The notes under the pieces were generated by a model. It did not search any database and was not told the DNA's origin. It saw nothing but the letters and a program-made list of their open reading frames with translations. Made by a program: the position numbers and the translations under genes. A stretch of 53,390 bases of DNA from a virus (Duplodnaviria > Caudoviricetes), in IMG/VR virus record IMGVR_UViG_3300025307_000067, positions 1-53,390 of that record; one strand, 5' to 3'. Of the stretch, positions 10,498 through 37,210 are shown one piece after another. Position 1 is the first letter of the stretch. Each line of letters starts with the position of its first letter.

Positions 10498-11391
10498 TCA
10501 ATCTTTGTAGGGGACTCTTACTGGTTTGTTTTTTAGTTTTCTTCTAACCCAAGATTCTTTTATCTTCTTTTTGGCTTCTTCAGTATGTTGTTTGCCATAG
10601 AAATGGTTTTTCTCTCCTTTATGAGCCTCACTGTTCTTCCTTCGAGCTTCTTCTGAAGGAGCCTTATTATAGTTAGGATTCTTATTTCCTAATTTACCTT
10701 GCCTAATCTTTTCAATAGTTTTTGGAGTATGTTTTACCCCTTTATTCCAAGAAATTCTTCCTTTCCTTGCTTTACTTAAATTTTTTCGATGATCTTCTGA
10801 AAAAATCCTATTTTTGTAAAGTTGTCTTAGTTTTTGTTTGAACTCATCAGAACATATATGACCGCCGGATCCTTCTCCTCCATTCGTCATATTGGCAAGA
10901 ATACCTGTTCCATTATCGTGACGTCCATACAACTCTATAGCAGCCCTTTCGATATCAAAAGCGTCTTGTTCTGAAAGATTGTCAAGAAATATCTCTTCAG
11001 TGAAATCCAAACCCGACTTCCAAAGAGCGTGAATGATAGCTATTTTATATATTTTTCTTCCTGATTTATGCAATAGCTGCTGAGCTTCTTTTCGATGACA
11101 TTCATATCTATGATTTTGCCCCTTACCTACATAGAATGGGCAGGCCAGATTTGAATCTTCTGGGTCTTCCTTATCTGGCCTGCGCAGGTAGTAAATATAA
11201 AATCTCGTCAAGTTTTCTTTCCTGGAATCCGATTCCAAACCGCTTTGGTTAAGTCCTCCTGTTTTATCAACCATATTGGGCCGTATTTCTTGGCCTGGAT
11301 CTTGCCAGATTGGATCAATTGATGAATCCTGCCTGGAGTTAGGCTCAGTTTCTCCGCCGCTTGCCGTGTGGTTAACATTTTTAGTCCTCAT
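10498..11391 (-). CDS. GIY-YIG homing endonuclease with NUMOD3 repeats
   Basis: FYIYYL...PFYVGKG..R, LANMTNGGEG, HFYGKQHTEEAKKKI repeats; own TATAAT promoter. Confidence 0.88.
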   Translation of the reverse strand: MRTKNVNHTASGGETEPNSRQDSSIDPIWQDPGQEIRPNMVDKTGGLNQSGLESDSRKENLTRFYIYYLRRPDKEDPEDSNLACPFYVGKGQNHRYECHRKEAQQLLHKSGRKIYKIAIIHALWKSGLDFTEEIFLDNLSEQDAFDIERAAIELYGRHDNGTGILANMTNGGEGSGGHICSDEFKQKLRQLYKNRIFSEDHRKNLSKARKGRISWNKGVKHTPKTIEKIRQGKLGNKNPNYNKAPSEEARRKNSEAHKGEKNHFYGKQHTEEAKKKIKESWVRRKLKNKPVRVPYKD

Positions 11392-13286: not shown

Positions 13287-13479
13287 ACATATTCTCCGAG
13301 GCTTCTTTCACATTATCAAGAAACGCCTTTCTTAACCAGCGCGCCATCTTTCTCTTCTCCCGGTTTGATTCCCGACGGATTTGTAATTGAGAGCGAAGAT
13401 GTATCTCAAGTTCATCTGGACTGAAAACACTAGGAAATCCAGTCCACTTCTCAGCAATTTGGTTAAGTCGAGATTTCAT
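13231..13479 (-). CDS. hypothetical protein
   Basis: ATGA overlap with helicase stop, RBS present. Confidence 0.55.
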   Translation of the reverse strand: MKSRLNQIAEKWTGFPSVFSPDELEIHLRSQLQIRRESNREKRKMARWLRKAFLDNVKEASENMFDGDLCLPQEFFQIMLKY

Positions 13480-16184
13480 TTCCTCTCCTTTTTCATTTTC
13501 TTGAGCAGTTCGCCCAGGATGGAATGTTTCTCAACTTCCTTGCCGTCGAGGACCTGGCTTAACACCTCAGCCTTTTCATCGAGCATAACGGCGATGTCTT
13601 CCTCAATGGTGTCCTCGGCTACCAGATAATAGACGTTAACGGTTTCTTCCTGGCCGATACGATGGGCGCGGTCCTCTGCCTGCTGGTGCTCGCCGGGCGT
13701 CCATCCCATTTCTACGAACGCTACGTGGGTAGCAGCGGTCAACGTGATACCTACGCCGGCAGCTTTCGTGTTGCCAACAAAGACCTTAATATCGGGGTCG
13801 GTTTGGAAATCGTCAACAGCCTTTTGACGTTGCTCCTGATTTTCCTTACCAGTGAGGCGAACCGCCTGCTTACCAAACTCGGCCATCAAAGCATCCACCA
13901 TCCAATGATGTACGGCAAACACGATGATCTTTTCATCCTGGTCTACAACGTCTCTGATCCAGGAGAGAGCGGATTGGAGCTTGCCACGGGCCGCCAGCTG
14001 CTTGAGTTTGCCAATGGCCACTAAAGCCTCTGCCGCAGACGCTCTCTCCGCCGCTTCTACACCTTCGGTACGCTCTAACCAACCCAGGAAGTCACGGACC
14101 GCTTCATTATACTCACTGCGGTTTTCCAACTCAAGAGGAACTACCGATCTGATTTTAGCCGGGAGGTCCTTGAGAACGTCCTTCTTGAGGCGGCGGATCA
14201 TTAAGGTCTTGGTGAGGATCTGGTGGAGTTCCTCAGTGTTGCTGGCACCAGAGTAATCCATGGCAAATCCATTAAACTTCGGAGCGCAGAACTTGTTGGC
14301 AAACTTGAACCAAGACGGAAACACCGTCGGATTCACTATGCTGATCGCATTGTAGAATTCGATGGGTCTATTGACAATAGGAGTACCGGACATAGCGATC
14401 ACATGCGGTACGCCTTTGGCCAGATCGCGAACGGCGAGCGTCCGTTGAGCCTTATTGTTTTTGACATAGTGGCTCTCATCAATGACCACCGCCTTAGGGT
14501 TGAGTTTCTTGAGGATCGGATTCCACTTTTTCAAGATGTCGTAATTGATGATGATCACGGAGACGGCTGGCAAAGCCAACTCTTGGCCATTGCCATTTGG
14601 GCTGCCAGACAGGATCATAACGGTTTCTTGTGAACGATCCATCCACTTGTAAGCCTCCCGCCGCCAATTCAGTTTCAAGCTGGCGGGGACTACGATAACT
14701 GCGGGTCTGGCTTCGGGATGGATTCTCAGCCATGCCAGGGTGATAATAGTTTTACCCAAGCCCATTTCATGTGCAACTAACGCTCTCCCTTGTCGACTTT
14801 CAAGGAAGTCAACGCTTTCTTTTTGAAAGGAGAATAGTTTTTCAAAGCCTGGTGGATTTTGGCTTAGTGCTTTAAGCGTAGAACAGTCCAGCCAAGGGCT
14901 TCCAATACTTTGGTTTTCTTGGCGTCTGTGATTTTGCTCTCCTTGCTGTTGTGGAGCCCACTGTCCACTTCTATTGCCACCATCGCGATCGGATCTGCGA
15001 AGTCGACTTTGTAGACAGTCGCGGCACTCGGGAAGGAAGCAATCACTGATTTGGTTTTCACCGGATATTCTCGGATGAACCCCTGCTCCCTCAGAAGACT
15101 GTCCAGATAACCGATAATGTCTGTCATTTCCTGTCCGTTGCCTCCCCGGAAATTCACTCCGTGTTTCTTTCTGGCCATCTCCAATCCCTTGAGATGTTTG
15201 CCCCTGACTTCTGGACGATGCATTGCTTCTTTGGTGGCTTTGGACACCTTCTCTCTCCAGGCTTCGTCTTGGGCATTCTCTATTAACTTCTCTCGGACTT
15301 TGGCCCTGACATCTGGGGTTCTCCCCTTTTCGAGGTTCTTTTTGTTCGATTCGTCTCTCACTTTGCTCGGCTTTCTGACGTAAACTCCCTTCGGCATTTT
15401 TCCTACCCCCATGGTTTTTAATTTCATTATATAATGGGCATAGGGAAAAATAAAGAATATTATTTATCTCTCCAGGTTTGTGCCCTTCCAGGTAGTTTTT
15501 CAGGTTGTCGTCCTGAGTGAACTGCCACTTCTCCAGGAGTTCCATGAGCTGGATGCTGGCGGGCACTTCCCAGAAGAACTTGTCAGGGTTCCAATGTCGG
15601 CTTGGGCAATCTTTGACTTCCTCTTTGATGGTTTCAAAATCTCTGTCTTTACGGTCCCAAAACAGCCGAATTTTTTCGTCCTCGAGCCATGCCGTCCTGG
15701 GCCGTAATGCTGGCGCAGCCATGGGCTCAGGCGCTTGAGCGCCGAGGTTTTTAATCCGTTCGAGGTCCTTAATATAGACCCTGGCTTGGGGGAGGATAGA
15801 CATCACCCGATTCAGGATTTCTTTACTGGCCGGGACGGACCAAAGGCGGGACCCGGTGAAGTCAAAGTTCCAACCTTGGATAGCCTTGATTTCTTTTCTG
15901 ATCGAACCGTCCTCATCGAACTTGAAACGGACGACGAAACGGTCGCCTTTGGCGTTTAGGGAAACGATGCTGGGGCCGTCATTCATGGCCGCAGCAATGA
16001 GGTTCGGGTCCATCTCCATATTGAGGCGAGCCAATTCTTGCTGGCAGATACCCCAATGGTTGGAGCATTCAGGCCCAATGCCTGCAGCGTAACTGTCTGG
16101 ATGGGTAAGTTCTCTGCCGCACCGCCTGCAGAAAACGTCCGGTCGCCTGTCAAGCGTTTCTATGACGGCTTTATCGGGGTTCAT
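13476..16184 (-). CDS. SNF2-family (SMARCAL1/HARP-like) helicase with N-terminal zinc finger; carries a ~200-aa non-helicase insert
   Basis: CRRCGRELTHPDS..GIGPEC finger, two HARP-like repeats, HEMGLGKT, IDESH, SGTPIVN, GVGITLT, QAEDRAHRIGQ. Confidence 0.9.
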   Translation of the reverse strand: MNPDKAVIETLDRRPDVFCRRCGRELTHPDSYAAGIGPECSNHWGICQQELARLNMEMDPNLIAAAMNDGPSIVSLNAKGDRFVVRFKFDEDGSIRKEIKAIQGWNFDFTGSRLWSVPASKEILNRVMSILPQARVYIKDLERIKNLGAQAPEPMAAPALRPRTAWLEDEKIRLFWDRKDRDFETIKEEVKDCPSRHWNPDKFFWEVPASIQLMELLEKWQFTQDDNLKNYLEGHKPGEINNILYFSLCPLYNEIKNHGGRKNAEGSLRQKAEQSERRIEQKEPRKGENPRCQGQSPREVNRECPRRSLEREGVQSHQRSNASSRSQGQTSQGIGDGQKETRSEFPGRQRTGNDRHYRLSGQSSEGAGVHPRISGENQISDCFLPECRDCLQSRLRRSDRDGGNRSGQWAPQQQGEQNHRRQENQSIGSPWLDCSTLKALSQNPPGFEKLFSFQKESVDFLESRQGRALVAHEMGLGKTIITLAWLRIHPEARPAVIVVPASLKLNWRREAYKWMDRSQETVMILSGSPNGNGQELALPAVSVIIINYDILKKWNPILKKLNPKAVVIDESHYVKNNKAQRTLAVRDLAKGVPHVIAMSGTPIVNRPIEFYNAISIVNPTVFPSWFKFANKFCAPKFNGFAMDYSGASNTEELHQILTKTLMIRRLKKDVLKDLPAKIRSVVPLELENRSEYNEAVRDFLGWLERTEGVEAAERASAAEALVAIGKLKQLAARGKLQSALSWIRDVVDQDEKIIVFAVHHWMVDALMAEFGKQAVRLTGKENQEQRQKAVDDFQTDPDIKVFVGNTKAAGVGITLTAATHVAFVEMGWTPGEHQQAEDRAHRIGQEETVNVYYLVAEDTIEEDIAVMLDEKAEVLSQVLDGKEVEKHSILGELLKKMKKERK
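14864..15397 (-). CDS. nested homing endonuclease (DUF559/Vsr-like PD-(D/E)xK) in an alternative frame of the helicase
   Basis: MPKGVYVRK start, basic NUMOD-like helices, EYPV..YKVDFA..VAIEVDSGLH...D..K...L...GWTVLRL; TATAAT at ~15430. Confidence 0.85.
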   Translation of the reverse strand: MPKGVYVRKPSKVRDESNKKNLEKGRTPDVRAKVREKLIENAQDEAWREKVSKATKEAMHRPEVRGKHLKGLEMARKKHGVNFRGGNGQEMTDIIGYLDSLLREQGFIREYPVKTKSVIASFPSAATVYKVDFADPIAMVAIEVDSGLHNSKESKITDAKKTKVLEALGWTVLRLKH

Positions 16185-33631: not shown

Positions 33632-36600
33632 GTGTCAGTGCCGGCTAAAAAATCTAGAAAACCAGGTTATGTTATCTATGGTGGCCAAGGCTCCGGCAAC
33701 TTTGGCCATGCCGGTAGACCTACCCAAGCTAACCTAACCCAGTCTGATACCTCTACTCTCCTACTCGTACCATCTATCAATATCTATGCTAAACTGGCCC
33801 GTGTGGACCCCACCCGCACATTAGTCCTCCGTAATAACTTCGTTGCTCAGATGACGGCCCGTTTTAGAAAACTCAAAGCCATTATACAGAAAGCTGTCGT
33901 TGATGACGATTGCTTTGGTATCGCCAAGCCTGAATCACAAGGAAGAAGGATTGTGGTGCAGGCTGATCTCACCACCCGGGGTGGCAGATCATTCGACTTT
34001 CCTACCTCACAAGAGAAATCAGCCGCCTTCCTGGAGTGGCTCCGAACCCAGGAACAAGCTGGAATATTAGAAACAGTAAGAATCCCCCAGGTAGGCACTG
34101 GTATAGAAAGTGCCTGGACCGACGTTTTCATAAAAGATAGTTACCAGCGCGGTGTCCAACGAGCCAGAGACGAACTCCTCCGCGGAGGTTATGCTGTTCC
34201 ATCTATGGAAGTTACTGGAGGGATATCCGCGAGCATGATGCAACCCATGCATATAAATCGCCTCGGCGTCGCATTTTCACGCACCTTCGATGGACTCAAA
34301 GGTATAACGAGCGCGATGGATACTCAAATCAGTCACGTCCTCACCAAGGGCTTGGCAGATGGAGACGGCCAGGCTACTATTGCCAAGAAACTCCTCGCCA
34401 CCATCGACGGAAACAACGCCGGTACGTTGGGGATAACGGATTCACTTGGACGCTTTATCCCGGCGGAGCGTCGGGCCGCTATGCTGGCTAGGACAGAGGT
34501 CATACGAGCCCATGCGCAAGGCACACTCCAGGAATTTAAGAACTGGGGTGTTGCTGGAGTTGATGTATTGGCTGAGTGGGTAACTGCTGGCTTCAATGTA
34601 TGTCCCGAGTGTCAAGAACTGGCTGAAAAAGGACCATACAAGATTGAAGAAGCGTGGGATATGCTGCCAGCACATCCCCATTGCTTTATTAGCCCTATGA
34701 TTCCGATTTATACATCAACTGGTTGGAGACCAATTGGTACAGTTCAAGTTGGGGATATGGTTCTTACTCATAAAGGGAGATTCAAGAGAGTATATGGTCT
34801 GCCGAGGACTTTGAAACAAACACCAGAAGTTGTTCATTTTAGTCTTCGAGGTTTTGATAACGATGGTGTGACAATGACAACAAACCATCCAGTGTTGGTT
34901 TCGAATAAATTGTTGCCTCCGCATTGGAAAGAAGCTGGAAAATGTACTCTTGAAGATAGGATAGTTTTATTTGCGAGTAGATGTAAAAGATGCGATAAAA
35001 AAATCCCTTGGTTTAGAACTTATTGTTCTGGGAGCTGTTGTAGTTCTGACAATGCAGAAAGGCAATGGGCTGATCCTGCTCATAGAGAAAATGTTAGTAA
35101 AAAGAACAGAGAAGCTAATTTGAGACAATATGCTTCTGGCGAGAGAGACAGATTTGCCACGAAGAAAGCCAACGAAAAAATTCGGAAAATGATTAAAGAT
35201 GGAACTTGGGGAACTTGGATGTGTGATGATTTCTTTAAGAAGGTTTTCCAAGTTACCAATACTCCAGAACAAATAGCTGTCAACTCTGAGAGAATGAAGA
35301 AAAAAAATCCAATGCATGACCCCGCTATTGTTGCGAAAGCGACAGCTTCTCTTATTAAAACTCTTGAGTTGCATCCAGAGAAAAGATTGAATGCAAGAAT
35401 GGCCAAGCATCGCAAAAGCAATAAGATGACAGGCATTGAACAACTAATGGCTCAGCTTCTTGATCGTCTTGGAATCGAATATATTTTTCAATATCCAATT
35501 TTGAGATATGATGTTGATTTTGCTATACCAACTCTGAAGATTGCAATCGAGTGCGATGGTGAATACTGGCATCAAGATAAACAGAAGGATTTGATCAGAC
35601 AAAAGAGGATTGAAGCAGAAGGTTGGTTTGTATTAAGATATACTGAAACAAAGATTAATCAGTGCTTTGATGAAATTGAAGACGAAGTTGTGAGAGTTTT
35701 AGCTAATCATAATGGTGATTATGAATTTGTTGGTCACCCTATCAAGAAAATTGAAAGAAGAACAGTTACAAAGCCATTGACTTTATATAATCTTGCTGTT
35801 GAGGAAGATGAATCATATATAGCAAGGGGATTAGTGGTTCACAATTGCCGCTGTGCCTGGCTGGCAAAACCAATAGATGGCAAGGAGAAGACCCCAGTTG
35901 AGGTGGCGCCGGAAGATATAGTCAGTATCATTTCTCCAGAAGATTCAGTTTTTGATAGCATTGCCAACAACTATCTCGAGTCTCCATCATCTATACAAGG
36001 CAGAGATAGAACCCTCGAAGGTCTGGCCGAAACTCAAGGATTTACTCAGCTTCCTAAAGTAGTCTCTGGACAGGAATTTGAAGATATAGTTCAGCAGCAA
36101 GGAATGAAGGAACTTTTTCGCGGGGTTCAGAACAGTAATATCGCTAATATGTTTGCTACCGGTGACTATTATGGTGCAACCGGAGCCTTTGGAAGCGGTA
36201 CATACGCTGCTATGGAGCAGGATTTGGCCAAGTTGTATATGGCCGGGGATAATGCAGTATTAATGAGAATGGGCCTACCAGCAGATGTCAAGATTGGTAA
36301 GTATGCTGATGTCCTTGCAAGTATGAAGCAAGATACAACTTTTGAAAAGGCTGGCAGTAAGGTATTTATGCAAGGATTTAAAGAAAACAGTGAGTTCCTG
36401 GTAGAAAAAGGCAAGGTCATTGAATCTGTTACGAAGGATGTAGGTAGATGGGCGGTGGTTAATGGTTATGATGCTATCCAAGCCCCAGATCAGATGATTA
36501 TATTGAATCGCAGTAAGGTATTGGTCAGCAATGATCTTCTTTCTAGGGAAGGAAAAGTTATTAGATTGCTCCCCGAAACCCCAGCCGCTGGTGTGGTGAA

Positions 36601-37210
36601 GTGGAAGCCGGTTATGAGCAAGGCAGAGGCAGAGAAGTTTATTGAAGGTAGTAAGTATACAGAGGACGTTTATCATGTGACTTATGAGCAGAATGCGAAA
36701 GCAATTATGAATGAAGGTTTTGATTTAGAAAAGAAAGGTTTCGGAAGAGTTTTTGGTGAAGGTGTTTATGCTGGAATGGATTTAGAAACAAAGAGTATTT
36801 ATAGAATAATGGCAGGAGGATTAAAAACTGAGAGCTTAACTCTAAAAGTTAAAGTAGATAATCCATTATTTTTAAGCGGTAGTAAGATGTATGGAATAGA
36901 TAAGACTAATATTTATGAAGACATAGTAAATAAGAAACATCAGTTTATGAAAGAGATTAATAAGAATGATATTAAATTAAGTAACCAGGCAGATATAAAA
37001 TTTCCTGGAAATCCAAGTGGAAAAAGACAATGGCTAAATGAGAATGGTTTTGTAGGATATAGCGAATTGGATTCAAAAGCATTTACTATGGCAGTTAAAG
37101 ATTTCGGATATGATTCGATAATAATAGAAGAAAAAGGCGGGCCAACTAAAATACTAGGTGGAAATCAAATTATTACTTTTGATCCTAAAAAGGTTGTGGT
37201 GATAAAATGA
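33632..37210 (+). CDS. MuF/gp7-like head morphogenesis protein with intein and two C-terminal ADP-ribosyltransferase-like domains
   Basis: RAAMLARTEVIRAH, VCPEC..., PAHPH/C-RC; LFRG...GAFGSGTY and VYHVT...VFGEGVY...GYDSI. Confidence 0.85.
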   Translation: MSVPAKKSRKPGYVIYGGQGSGNFGHAGRPTQANLTQSDTSTLLLVPSINIYAKLARVDPTRTLVLRNNFVAQMTARFRKLKAIIQKAVVDDDCFGIAKPESQGRRIVVQADLTTRGGRSFDFPTSQEKSAAFLEWLRTQEQAGILETVRIPQVGTGIESAWTDVFIKDSYQRGVQRARDELLRGGYAVPSMEVTGGISASMMQPMHINRLGVAFSRTFDGLKGITSAMDTQISHVLTKGLADGDGQATIAKKLLATIDGNNAGTLGITDSLGRFIPAERRAAMLARTEVIRAHAQGTLQEFKNWGVAGVDVLAEWVTAGFNVCPECQELAEKGPYKIEEAWDMLPAHPHCFISPMIPIYTSTGWRPIGTVQVGDMVLTHKGRFKRVYGLPRTLKQTPEVVHFSLRGFDNDGVTMTTNHPVLVSNKLLPPHWKEAGKCTLEDRIVLFASRCKRCDKKIPWFRTYCSGSCCSSDNAERQWADPAHRENVSKKNREANLRQYASGERDRFATKKANEKIRKMIKDGTWGTWMCDDFFKKVFQVTNTPEQIAVNSERMKKKNPMHDPAIVAKATASLIKTLELHPEKRLNARMAKHRKSNKMTGIEQLMAQLLDRLGIEYIFQYPILRYDVDFAIPTLKIAIECDGEYWHQDKQKDLIRQKRIEAEGWFVLRYTETKINQCFDEIEDEVVRVLANHNGDYEFVGHPIKKIERRTVTKPLTLYNLAVEEDESYIARGLVVHNCRCAWLAKPIDGKEKTPVEVAPEDIVSIISPEDSVFDSIANNYLESPSSIQGRDRTLEGLAETQGFTQLPKVVSGQEFEDIVQQQGMKELFRGVQNSNIANMFATGDYYGATGAFGSGTYAAMEQDLAKLYMAGDNAVLMRMGLPADVKIGKYADVLASMKQDTTFEKAGSKVFMQGFKENSEFLVEKGKVIESVTKDVGRWAVVNGYDAIQAPDQMIILNRSKVLVSNDLLSREGKVIRLLPETPAAGVVKWKPVMSKAEAEKFIEGSKYTEDVYHVTYEQNAKAIMNEGFDLEKKGFGRVFGEGVYAGMDLETKSIYRIMAGGLKTESLTLKVKVDNPLFLSGSKMYGIDKTNIYEDIVNKKHQFMKEINKNDIKLSNQADIKFPGNPSGKRQWLNENGFVGYSELDSKAFTMAVKDFGYDSIIIEEKGGPTKILGGNQIITFDPKKVVVIK
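34682..35845 (+). mobile_element. intein (388 aa) with DUF559/Vsr-like endonuclease
   Basis: Starts CFISP, block B TTNHPV, ends YNLAVEEDESYIARGLVVHN followed by Cys; internal VDFAI..IAIECDGEYWH. Confidence 0.93.

What the first reader, a model, noticed from the sequence alone, without database searches (positions are those of the whole stretch)
14840..15480. Homing endonuclease overprinted inside an unbroken SNF2 helicase reading frame
Seen: a DUF559/Vsr-like endonuclease gene with its own TATAAT and RBS lies on the same strand, in another frame, between the HARP-like repeats and the ATPase domain. The helicase frame has no stop for ~200 codons across it, giving a low-complexity R/Q/S/G-rich linker. 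There are no intein motifs and no room for a group I intron core. Roughly (61/64)^200, about 1e-4, by chance at uniform composition. The helicase codons just downstream (~14740-14860) look more AT-rich than the rest of the gene, as if recoded. Inference: a splicing-free way to invade a gene, tolerated because the alternate frame was purged of stops and serves as a disordered linker.
Basis: partly seen in the sequence, partly recalled or inferred. Interest (0 to 1): 0.82.

Follow-up and report, generated by a model that had tools for sequence, protein, structure and literature searches.

The report
Endonuclease gene read through inside helicase
A selfish DNA-cutting-enzyme gene sits out of frame inside a freshwater phage's helicase gene, and selection keeps the helicase frame free of stop codons across it, so the helicase is most likely made straight through the invader without splicing, a trick first described in 2025 for other phage genes.

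Summary
A 177-codon DUF559/Vsr-like homing-endonuclease (HE) gene (window 15397-14864, minus strand) lies in the +1 frame inside an unbroken 902-codon SNF2 helicase ORF (16184-13476).

- **Mobile cassette.** An HE-free allele about 90% identical (L065) shows a 744-nt cassette (about 15485-14739) replacing 147 nt. The cassette holds a promoter, an SD, the HE gene and a recoded, AT-richer tract of about 95 nt running to motif I.
- **Stop avoidance.** None of 68 HE codons that could create a helicase-frame stop ends in T. No stop-free outcome arose in 200,000 synonymous permutations (mean 9 stops).
- **Relatives.** In 24 of 38 related loci the same relative frame has no stops. In the other 14 it has 3-23 stops; most of these HEs sit just upstream of a helicase that starts at or after the Q motif.
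- **Decayed copies.** Three distinct embedded copies have a broken HE frame but an open helicase frame.
- **No removal device.** No intein, intron or internal start codon was found.

Read-through as an unstructured linker is the best explanation. There is no RNA or protein evidence. The principle is in print for HNH genes in phage methylases (ShiLan domain, 2025), and this scan has noted it often on other DNA. This is therefore a new variant: a Vsr-like HE in a helicase interdomain linker, with free-standing relatives as a natural control.

The parts
13476..16184 (-). SNF2-family helicase ORF, 902 codons, unbroken across the insert
   Evidence: AF2 model confident outside residues 240-442
16053..16148 (-). 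DUF6011 Cys-rich N-terminal motif (aa 13-44)
   Evidence: Pfam E=8.7e-10
15480..16010 (-). Folded in the model, no Pfam hit.
   Evidence: pLDDT 75-92; no HARP at E<=1; homologues P0005, P0009 and P0014 carry precomputed PF07443
14739..15485 (-). Mobile cassette. It replaces 147 nt of the HE-free allele, a net gain of 597 nt (199 codons), in frame.
   Evidence: DNA alignment with L065; X3 contig joins 14738 to 15483 with 147 other letters
15426..15454 (-). Cassette promoter: -10 TATAAT (15431-15426) and a weak -35 (TTTATT here, TTGACT/TTGATT in relatives) with a 17-nt spacer. Read as ..FSLCPLYN in the helicase frame.
   Evidence: Conserved upstream of embedded and free-standing copies alike. 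The simple promoter scan did not call it in the window.
14864..15397 (-). DUF559/Vsr-like homing endonuclease CDS, 177 aa plus TAA. The ORF is open from 15427.
   Evidence: AF2 pLDDT 87, C-terminal domain resembles I-Bth0305I and Vsr weakly
14850..15479 (-). Helicase-frame read-through segment (codons 236-445): R/Q/S/G/E-rich, no family, no confident fold
   Evidence: no Pfam family; pLDDT 26-38; composition; its sequence is no better conserved than the same frame of free-standing copies
14739..14863 (-). Cassette-borne 3' helicase tract (Q motif to just past motif I): diverged and AT-richer, likely a co-conversion or immunity tract
   Evidence: 48/84 identical against about 90% in the flanks; GC 0.43 against 0.55
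13653..14828 (-). SNF2 ATPase core (SNF2-rel 453-694, Helicase_C 743-844)

Best explanation
A free-standing-type Vsr-like (DUF559) homing-endonuclease cassette has homed into the interdomain linker of a phage SNF2 helicase, just 5' of the Q motif.

The cassette brings its own sigma-70-like promoter, an SD and the HE ORF. It also brings its own version of the roughly 95 nt of helicase coding sequence between the HE stop and motif I. The HE is made from its own start codon.

The helicase is translated straight through the HE gene in the -1 frame relative to the HE. This gives a roughly 103-kDa protein with a roughly 200-residue unstructured R/Q/S/G-rich tether between the N-terminal repeats and the ATPase. 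Nothing is spliced out.

Purifying selection on the host removes every HE codon choice that would place a stop in the helicase frame. The amino-acid sequence of the tether itself is not selected.

Shown: the anatomy, the presence/absence polymorphism, the stop avoidance, the HE-frame constraint, and the absence of intein, intron or restart signals.
Inferred: translation through the insert, HE activity, homing with co-conversion, and a target near motif I.
For: (1) Insertion polymorphism with exact boundaries: L065 and an X3 contig lack 744 nt and have 147 nt instead, a net 597 nt in frame. Contigs from a second run, X2, bridge both junctions with 0 differences.

(2) Stop avoidance in the window: 0/68 risky codons end in T against 22/108 elsewhere. 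0 of 200,000 synonymous permutations are stop-free, mean 9.0 stops. Expected 15.5 stops, P0 about 4e-9.

(3) Family-wide bimodality: of 38 loci with a near-full HE, 24 have 0 stops in this frame and 14 have 3-23. The other frame has 3-22 stops in all 38.

(4) Where the frame is open it belongs to a long ORF with an N-terminal domain. Most of the 14 stop-containing copies lie directly upstream of a helicase ORF that starts at or after the Q motif. No HARP-like N-domain was found in 16 such loci.

(5) HE frame broken but host frame open in L005, L029/L030 and L031.

(6) Variation peaks at HE codon position 3 (0.53, against 0.34 and 0.29 at positions 1 and 2). Helicase-frame identity is 0.33 (class A) and 0.24 (class B) in embedded copies, against 0.22 for the same, meaningless frame of free copies.

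(7) The only ATG/GTG/TTG codons in the helicase frame between 15500 and 14700 are two inside motif I.

(8) No Hint or intein hit in the window, although the same library finds Hint domains in relatives L014, L016, L018 and L019. No intron family in Rfam.

(9) AF2: insert pLDDT 26-38, flanks 75-96.

(10) Embedded and free copies intermix on the HE tree, with two starred sister pairs of opposite state.
Against: - No RNA or protein data. No RNA run holds the stretch, and this blank says nothing either way.
- The low AF2 confidence may partly reflect the few sequences that cover the insert.
- The HE tree is poorly resolved (18 of 32 inner branches open, bootstrap not settled), so the number of independent switches is uncertain.
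- The 38 loci are not fully de-duplicated (L003/L005 are near-identical) and are metagenome assemblies.
- The stop-free state could partly be inherited with the cassette rather than purged in this host.
- The promoter was not called by the simple scan in the window, and the SD is weak here.
- In the related class-B loci some host frames do carry a stop inside motif I, so plain read-through is not the family's only solution.
Confidence: 0.78

Rival explanations
1. The insert is removed after transcription or translation by an unrecognised intron or an intein-like element, so the mature helicase lacks the linker.
For: Relatives of this HE family live in inteins of SNF2 genes (L014, L016, L018, L019: Hint hits). 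Vsr-like HEs also occur in group I introns (PMC2677866, passages).
Against: - RNA splicing would remove any need for an open frame, yet the frame is kept open.
- No Rfam intron match.
- Only about 65 nt of the insert lie outside the HE ORF.
- No Hint or intein family in the window protein.
- The linker's amino-acid sequence is no better conserved than the same frame in free-standing copies, which is not expected of a splicing domain.
Confidence: 0.06
2. The stop-free frame is a property inherited with a pre-adapted cassette, for example one evolved inside inteins. The insertion here is recent and the helicase may be impaired or dispensable, so there is no ongoing selection in this host.
For: Class-A HE copies cluster on the tree (3 changes against a shuffled mean of 8.8). 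The cassette carries its own 3' tract, which by my count resembles L020's (about 60% aa) at least as much as that of the sibling allele P0002 (about 54%).
Against: - Embedded copies differ by 0.53 per site at HE third positions yet none has gained a stop.
- Decayed HEs keep the host frame open.
- Starred sister pairs differ in state.
- Outside the cassette the helicase is about 90% identical to the HE-free allele, with no disruptions.
Confidence: 0.1
3. The open frame is due to chance or base composition.
For: GC-rich relatives such as L011 have few stops in any frame (3 in the +1 frame).
Against: - 0 of 200,000 permutations are stop-free in the window.
- The other frame has 10 stops in the window and 3-22 in all 38 loci.
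- The family distribution is bimodal, 0 against 3-23.
Confidence: 0.01
4. A programmed frameshift fuses the helicase N-domain to the HE, or the ATPase is started internally, so the two halves act as separate products.
For: Fractured host genes with a restart at the HE 3' end are known for this HE family (PMC2677866) and occur in relatives (L007, L009, L056).
Against: - No start codon in the helicase frame before motif I.
- The HE has its own conserved promoter, SD and ATG in embedded and free copies alike.
- An open frame of 200 codons is not needed for either scheme.
Confidence: 0.04

Closest known systems
ShiLan domain and the Pacc40 insertion: hidden out-of-frame HNH endonucleases in mycobacteriophage DNA methylase genes (Arsenault, Gosselin & Gogarten 2025, PMC11855218; abstract, outline and Discussion read)
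   Same: - The insertion is absent from close homologues.
- The host frame has no stop across it.
- A complete HE ORF lies in another frame of the same strand.
- No intein or intron signature was found.
- The authors likewise propose that the insert stays in the protein as a tolerated loop.
- Evidence is computational only.
   Different: - The HE family is Vsr-like/DUF559, not HNH.
- The host is an SNF2 helicase, not a methylase.
- The insert lies in an interdomain linker.
- A conserved promoter and SD precede the HE (that paper reports no detectable RBS and suggests leaderless initiation).
- The cassette also carries a recoded host tract.
- Free-standing relatives of the same HE at the same host site give a direct control for stop purging.
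Fractured genes with Vsr-like or GIY-YIG free-standing HEs (Dassa et al. 2009, PMC2677866; passages read)
   Same: - The same HE family (Vsr-like) on the same strand, between two parts of a host enzyme gene.
- The HE has its own upstream control region with a hairpin or palindrome.
- The intein-less SbcD case is the closest layout.
   Different: In fractured genes the host gene is broken: the element supplies a stop for the upstream half and a Met for the downstream half. Here there is neither, and the host frame is continuous. No occurrence of 'SNF2' was found in that paper's text.
Inteins whose HE is a separate ORF in another frame or strand (Gosselin, Arsenault & Gogarten, bioRxiv 10.1101/2025.01.02.630785; abstract and passages read)
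   Same: The HE overlaps a host-frame segment that must stay open. Relatives of this very HE sit this way inside SNF2 inteins (L014, L016-L019).
   Different: In those cases the read-through segment is removed by protein splicing. The window has no splicing domain.
T4 mobA / gene 60 cassette (Manning & Atkins bioRxiv 10.1101/2022.08.31.505936, abstract read; PMC5009743, passages read)
   Same: The HE is linked to a host-gene alteration that has to be dealt with at translation. Class-B relatives of this HE carry stop-containing micro-gaps in motif I.
   Different: The window has no coding gap, and nothing needs to be bypassed.

Membership tests
DUF559 / Vsr-like homing endonucleases | Sequence match to the DUF559/Vsr nuclease core with conserved acidic, His and Lys residues | tested here: met
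   PF04480 E=3.4e-7, 30.6 bits against a 20.6 cut-off. E153, D155, H159, D168 and K171 are invariant in 29 sequences.
DUF559 / Vsr-like homing endonucleases | Vsr/I-Bth0305I-type fold | tested here: inconclusive
   AF2 pLDDT 87. Foldseek gives 3r3p_B E=0.053, prob 0.98, and 1vsr E=0.089; nothing at E<=0.001. The profile against PDB sequences gives 3hrl E=2e-4 and 3r3p E=0.33.
DUF559 / Vsr-like homing endonucleases | Mobility: presence/absence in otherwise near-identical host genes | tested here: met
   L065 and an X3 contig lack it at identical boundaries.
DUF559 / Vsr-like homing endonucleases | Site-specific cleavage of the HE-free allele | not testable with these tools
   Needs an enzyme assay.
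ShiLan-type hidden out-of-frame HE insertion | Host frame uninterrupted across an insertion that homologues lack | tested here: met
ShiLan-type hidden out-of-frame HE insertion | Complete HE ORF in another frame of the same strand | tested here: met
ShiLan-type hidden out-of-frame HE insertion | No intein or intron signature | tested here: met
ShiLan-type hidden out-of-frame HE insertion | Insert retained in the mature protein | not testable with these tools
   Also untested in the published case (PMC11855218 Discussion).
Intein | Hint splicing blocks flanking the HE region, in the host frame | tested here: not met
   No Hint or Intein_splicing hit in the 902-aa protein or in the linker. The same search finds them in L014, L016, L018 and L019 and in the window's own MuF ORF.
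Group I / II intron | Ribozyme core detectable around the ORF | tested here: not met
   Rfam at E<=10 gave no intron family. About 65 nt of the insert are non-ORF sequence.
Fractured gene (Dassa 2009) | Stop codon ends the upstream half and a new start begins the downstream half | tested here: not met
   No stop. No start codon before motif I.
HARP-SNF2 (SMARCAL1-like) annealing helicase | SNF2 ATPase core | tested here: met
   PF00176 E=9e-39, PF00271 E=4e-16
HARP-SNF2 (SMARCAL1-like) annealing helicase | HARP domain(s) N-terminal to the ATPase | tested here: inconclusive
   No PF07443 hit at E<=1 in residues 59-235. Precomputed PF07443 on homologues P0005, P0009 and P0014. Two folded beta-beta-alpha repeats in the model.

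The most novel reading that the evidence does not exclude
One Vsr-like HE lineage behaves as a 'frame-transparent' cassette that can live anywhere in or beside SNF2 helicase genes and switches between at least five states:
- free-standing, upstream of ATPase-only helicases;
- read through in the interdomain linker (this window);
- read through inside the RecA1 core, between the Q motif and motif I or just after motif I;
- read through inside an intein;
- fracturing the gene.

Its -1 frame is kept stop-free whenever host translation must pass. In core-inserted copies it travels with stop-containing micro-gaps of a few nucleotides in Walker A that ribosomes would have to hop over. HE-less alleles (L089, L100) appear to keep the same 3' tract and gap, as after a 'hit and run'. 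Splicing-free invasion of ORF interiors would then be a general, evolvable HE strategy and not an oddity.
Probability: 0.45. Interest if true: 0.75.

Novelty: new variant of a known kind. Interest (0 to 1): 0.52.

Why it matters
Textbook accounts say a homing endonuclease can sit inside a gene only if an intron or intein removes it, or if the gene is split. This locus and about two dozen relatives give unusually clean comparative evidence for a further way: the host simply translates through the selfish gene in another frame.

The same HE family also occurs free-standing at the same host site, where the frame is full of stops. This provides a built-in control that the published HNH/methylase cases lack.

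It also matters for annotation. Overlapping HE ORFs and 200-residue 'junk' linkers are missed or misread by gene callers. It further suggests that interdomain linkers are safe landing sites for mobile DNA. The claim can be tested directly with one expression construct.

Tried and rejected
I used the search for related loci instead, as the tool's message advised.
- The single-protein HE scan of viral contigs found no relative. The alignment A2 did.
A narrower alignment, A3, worked.
- blastn of the helicase region against GenBank phages gave one 137-nt match in a Ralstonia phage and no close relative.
- Rfam gave nothing above chance.
- No RNA holder is listed for the stretch, so expression and splicing could not be examined. 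The runs laid are DNA contigs only.
- Foldseek against the PDB gave no match at E<=0.001 for the HE model. The 'pdb_via' library was not on the machine.
- The simple promoter scan did not call the cassette promoter in the window.
- Paper searches: 'homing endonuclease' + 'overprinting' gave 0 papers. HE + SNF2 + bacteriophage + free-standing gave only group II intron papers. Helicase + Walker A + programmed frameshift and related terms gave nothing on the micro-gaps. I found no paper describing a Vsr-like HE read through in an SNF2 gene. Supplements were closed and may hold relevant tables (Dassa 2009 Table S1; Gosselin et al. Supplemental Table 1).
- I considered the conserved AAAGGAGGT after the HE stop in class-B loci as a restart SD. 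I rejected this because it reads KEV in the HE frame, matching the C-terminal extension of relatives P0130, P0135 and P0140.
- I considered TGA=Trp codes for the micro-gap loci and rejected them. The downstream helicase ORFs are open under table 11, and the 8-nt gaps need a frame change anyway.
- Rows dropped before the 38-locus count: L006, L008, L024, L030, L040 and L043 (near-duplicates or truncated copies of L003, L007, L023, L029, L038 and L039); L014-L019, L025 and L051-L064 (partial or distant HE matches). L005, a near-duplicate of L003, was left in.
Full report
**What is there.** The window is a 53,390-bp virus record, estimated 53% complete. On the minus strand a 902-codon ORF (16184-13476) encodes a helicase with a DUF6011 motif, an SNF2 ATPase core and Helicase_C. 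A 187-codon ORF (15427-14864) on the same strand, one base out of step, matches DUF559 (E=3.4e-7, above the curated cut-off). In an alignment of 29 HE sequences, the 28 relatives begin at MPxGxY, so the real start is most likely the third ATG at 15397. The first ATG overlaps the -10 box.

**It is an insertion.**
- Of 4,098 helicase homologues at E<=0.001, the nearest (P0002, 91% identical, 703 aa) lacks exactly this segment.
- A viral contig with an HE-free allele (L065) aligns at 645/699 upstream and 1131/1263 downstream.
- Window 15485-14739 (744 nt) stands where L065 has 147 nt. The net gain is 597 nt, 199 codons, in frame.
- An unrelated wetland run holds a contig of a ~92% relative that joins 14738 to 15483 with 147 other letters, the same boundaries. 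A second freshwater run has contigs with 0 differences that bridge both junctions, so the layout is not an assembly artefact of one sample.
- The cassette includes 89 nt of helicase coding sequence from the HE stop to motif I. This tract is only 48/84 identical to L065 and is AT-richer (GC 0.43 against 0.55).
- By my count, the tract resembles that of L020, the locus with the nearest HE, at least as much as that of its own sibling allele. This fits co-conversion during homing, or a tract that protects the HE-bearing allele.

**The open frame is selected.** A helicase-frame stop can arise only where an HE codon ending in T precedes a codon starting AA, AG or GA.
- The window has 68 such sites and none ends in T, while 22 of 108 other codons do (Fisher p=9.8e-6).
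- Permuting synonymous codons within the HE ORF gave a mean of 9.0 stops and no stop-free outcome in 200,000 trials.
- With the codon usage of stop-containing relatives, 15.5 stops are expected and P(0) is about 4e-9.

**Relatives give the control.** I fetched 17 viral and 45 metagenome loci with HE relatives.
- In nearly all of them the HE lies directly 5' of, or inside, an SNF2 ATPase gene.
- Among 38 loci with a near-full HE (rows dropped are listed under Tried and rejected), the frame corresponding to the window's helicase frame has 0 stops in 24 and 3-23 stops in 14. The remaining frame has 3-22 stops in all 38.
- Where the frame is open it is part of a long ORF with an N-terminal domain.
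- Most stop-containing copies lie just upstream of a helicase that starts at or after the Q motif, often with an ATGA overlap. No HARP-like N-domain was detectable in 16 such loci.
- In L005, L029/L030 and L031 the HE frame is broken but the helicase frame is intact.
- Variation is concentrated at HE third positions (0.53 against 0.34 and 0.29).
- The helicase-frame peptide is hardly better conserved in embedded copies (identity 0.33 in class A, 0.24 in class B) than the same, meaningless frame of free copies (0.22). The HE protein is under selection, and the tether is selected only to lack stops.
- On a poorly resolved HE tree, embedded and free copies intermix, with two well-supported sister pairs of opposite state.

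**Why read-through.**
- Selection for an open frame makes sense only if ribosomes cross it, which argues against RNA splicing or bypass of the whole insert.
- No intron family matches.
- No Hint or intein domain is found in the protein or the linker. The same library does find them in relatives L014, L016, L018 and L019.
- Between 15500 and 14700 the helicase frame holds no ATG, GTG or TTG except two inside motif I. The ATPase, including its Q motif, therefore cannot be started on its own.
- AlphaFold2 models the N-terminal repeats and the ATPase confidently but gives residues 281-442 a pLDDT of 26-38. The caveat is that few aligned sequences cover the insert.
- The segment matches no Pfam family.

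**HE expression.** Upstream of the HE start, embedded and free copies share TTGAYT, a 17-nt spacer, then TATAAT, followed by an AGGAG-type SD. In several relatives the -10 box lies in a palindrome. In the helicase frame this promoter is read as ..DFSLCPLYN, which explains that conserved 'protein' motif. The window's -35 is weak, and the simple scan did not call the promoter. The HE model has a four-helix N-terminal part and a C-terminal nuclease domain with weak similarity to I-Bth0305I and Vsr.

**Comparison with what is known.**
- Dassa et al. 2009 described Vsr-like HEs that fracture host genes, supplying a stop and a new Met (PMC2677866, passages). Here there is neither.
- Gosselin et al. 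describe inteins whose HE lies in another frame or strand (bioRxiv 10.1101/2025.01.02.630785, passages). Relatives of this HE do that in SNF2 inteins, but the window has no intein.
- The same principle as here was published for an out-of-frame HNH in mycobacteriophage methylases, the ShiLan domain: no stops in the host frame, no intein or intron, and retention proposed but untested (PMC11855218).
- Earlier notes of this scan report the kind many times on other DNA, mostly HNH in methyltransferases, and SNF2 inteins with an overprinted Vsr-like HE.
- This is therefore a new variant of a known kind.

**Side observations.**
- The same HE also sits between the Q motif and motif I (class B: L010, L035, L036, L038-L040, L043, L045, L047, L049, L055, L057) and once just after motif I (L044). 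The host frame is again stop-free across the HE.
- In six distinct class-B-type loci, motif I itself is interrupted by a stop-containing micro-insert. In five of them it is flanked by matching Gly or Leu codons.
- A pattern scan found 43 viral loci, about 36 of them phage SF2 helicases, with a Gly codon, a stop and 2-3 nt before GLGKT. The downstream frames stay open for about 390-450 codons.
- A GenBank phage (Paenibacillus Pd_22F) has a 5-nt version next to an annotated HNH gene.
- Two helicases (L089, L100) with no HE hit keep a similar 3' tract and the gap.
- This agrees with earlier notes of the scan on Walker-A 'stop-hops'. The 2016 review read here states that no natural in-frame stop-hop was known (PMC5009743, passages). 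The window itself has an intact motif I.

**Verdict.** The mechanism (read-through as a tolerated tether, the HE made from its own promoter, homing with a co-converted tract) is the best-supported reading at about 0.78. It rests on comparative evidence and has not been tested experimentally.

Noticed in passing
L010, L027, L036, L038/L040, L039, L045 (relatives); L069-L112; L075 (MZ092003.1 about 63,600-63,900): Walker A (motif I) of phage SF2/SNF2 helicases is interrupted by a stop-containing micro-insert, mostly an extra Gly codon plus TGA or TAA plus 2-3 nt. The downstream ORFs are intact for about 390-450 codons. A hop between the matching codons would restore DEMGLGKT/DMGLGKT. About 36 of 43 pattern hits are helicases, and one (L077) has two consecutive stops. 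Some lie beside this Vsr-like HE, and one cultured Paenibacillus phage has the feature beside an HNH gene. L027 has no matching landing codon.
   Followed up: partly
L089, L100: Class-B-type SNF2 helicases with no HE hit that keep a segment similar to the one following the HE in L010/L036/L045, together with the motif-I micro-gap. This looks like loss of the HE after invasion ('hit and run').
   Followed up: partly
L014, L016, L017, L018, L019: More distant relatives of the HE (35-36% identity over the nuclease domain) lie out of frame inside inteins of SNF2 helicase genes. The intein/helicase frame stays open across them.
   Followed up: partly
window 33632-37210 (+): The MuF-like 1192-aa ORF holds an intein with an in-frame DUF559/Vsr-like domain (aa 582-690, DUF559 E=6e-12). 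The same phage therefore carries a second Vsr-like HE in the classical in-frame intein layout, plus a PARP-like hit.
   Followed up: partly
window 10498-11391 (-): A free-standing GIY-YIG plus triple-NUMOD3 endonuclease gene (297 aa), a third HE-type gene in this record.
   Followed up: no
L009 3500-3925 and 4528-5916: A partial duplicate of the helicase 5' end (Q-motif region) lies upstream of the free-standing HE, as expected from imprecise homing or co-conversion.
   Followed up: no
L044 2702-5713: The same HE is inserted just after motif I (GLGKTIQVLFAL | HE | ..VICPASLKLNW) with the 1004-codon host frame open. This is a further read-through site, inside the RecA1 core.
   Followed up: no
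L075 (MZ092003.1): The GenBank annotation starts the helicase CDS at 63872, downstream of motif I. It thus misses the N-terminal ~33 codons (Q motif and the first part of Walker A) that precede the 5-nt gap.
   Followed up: partly
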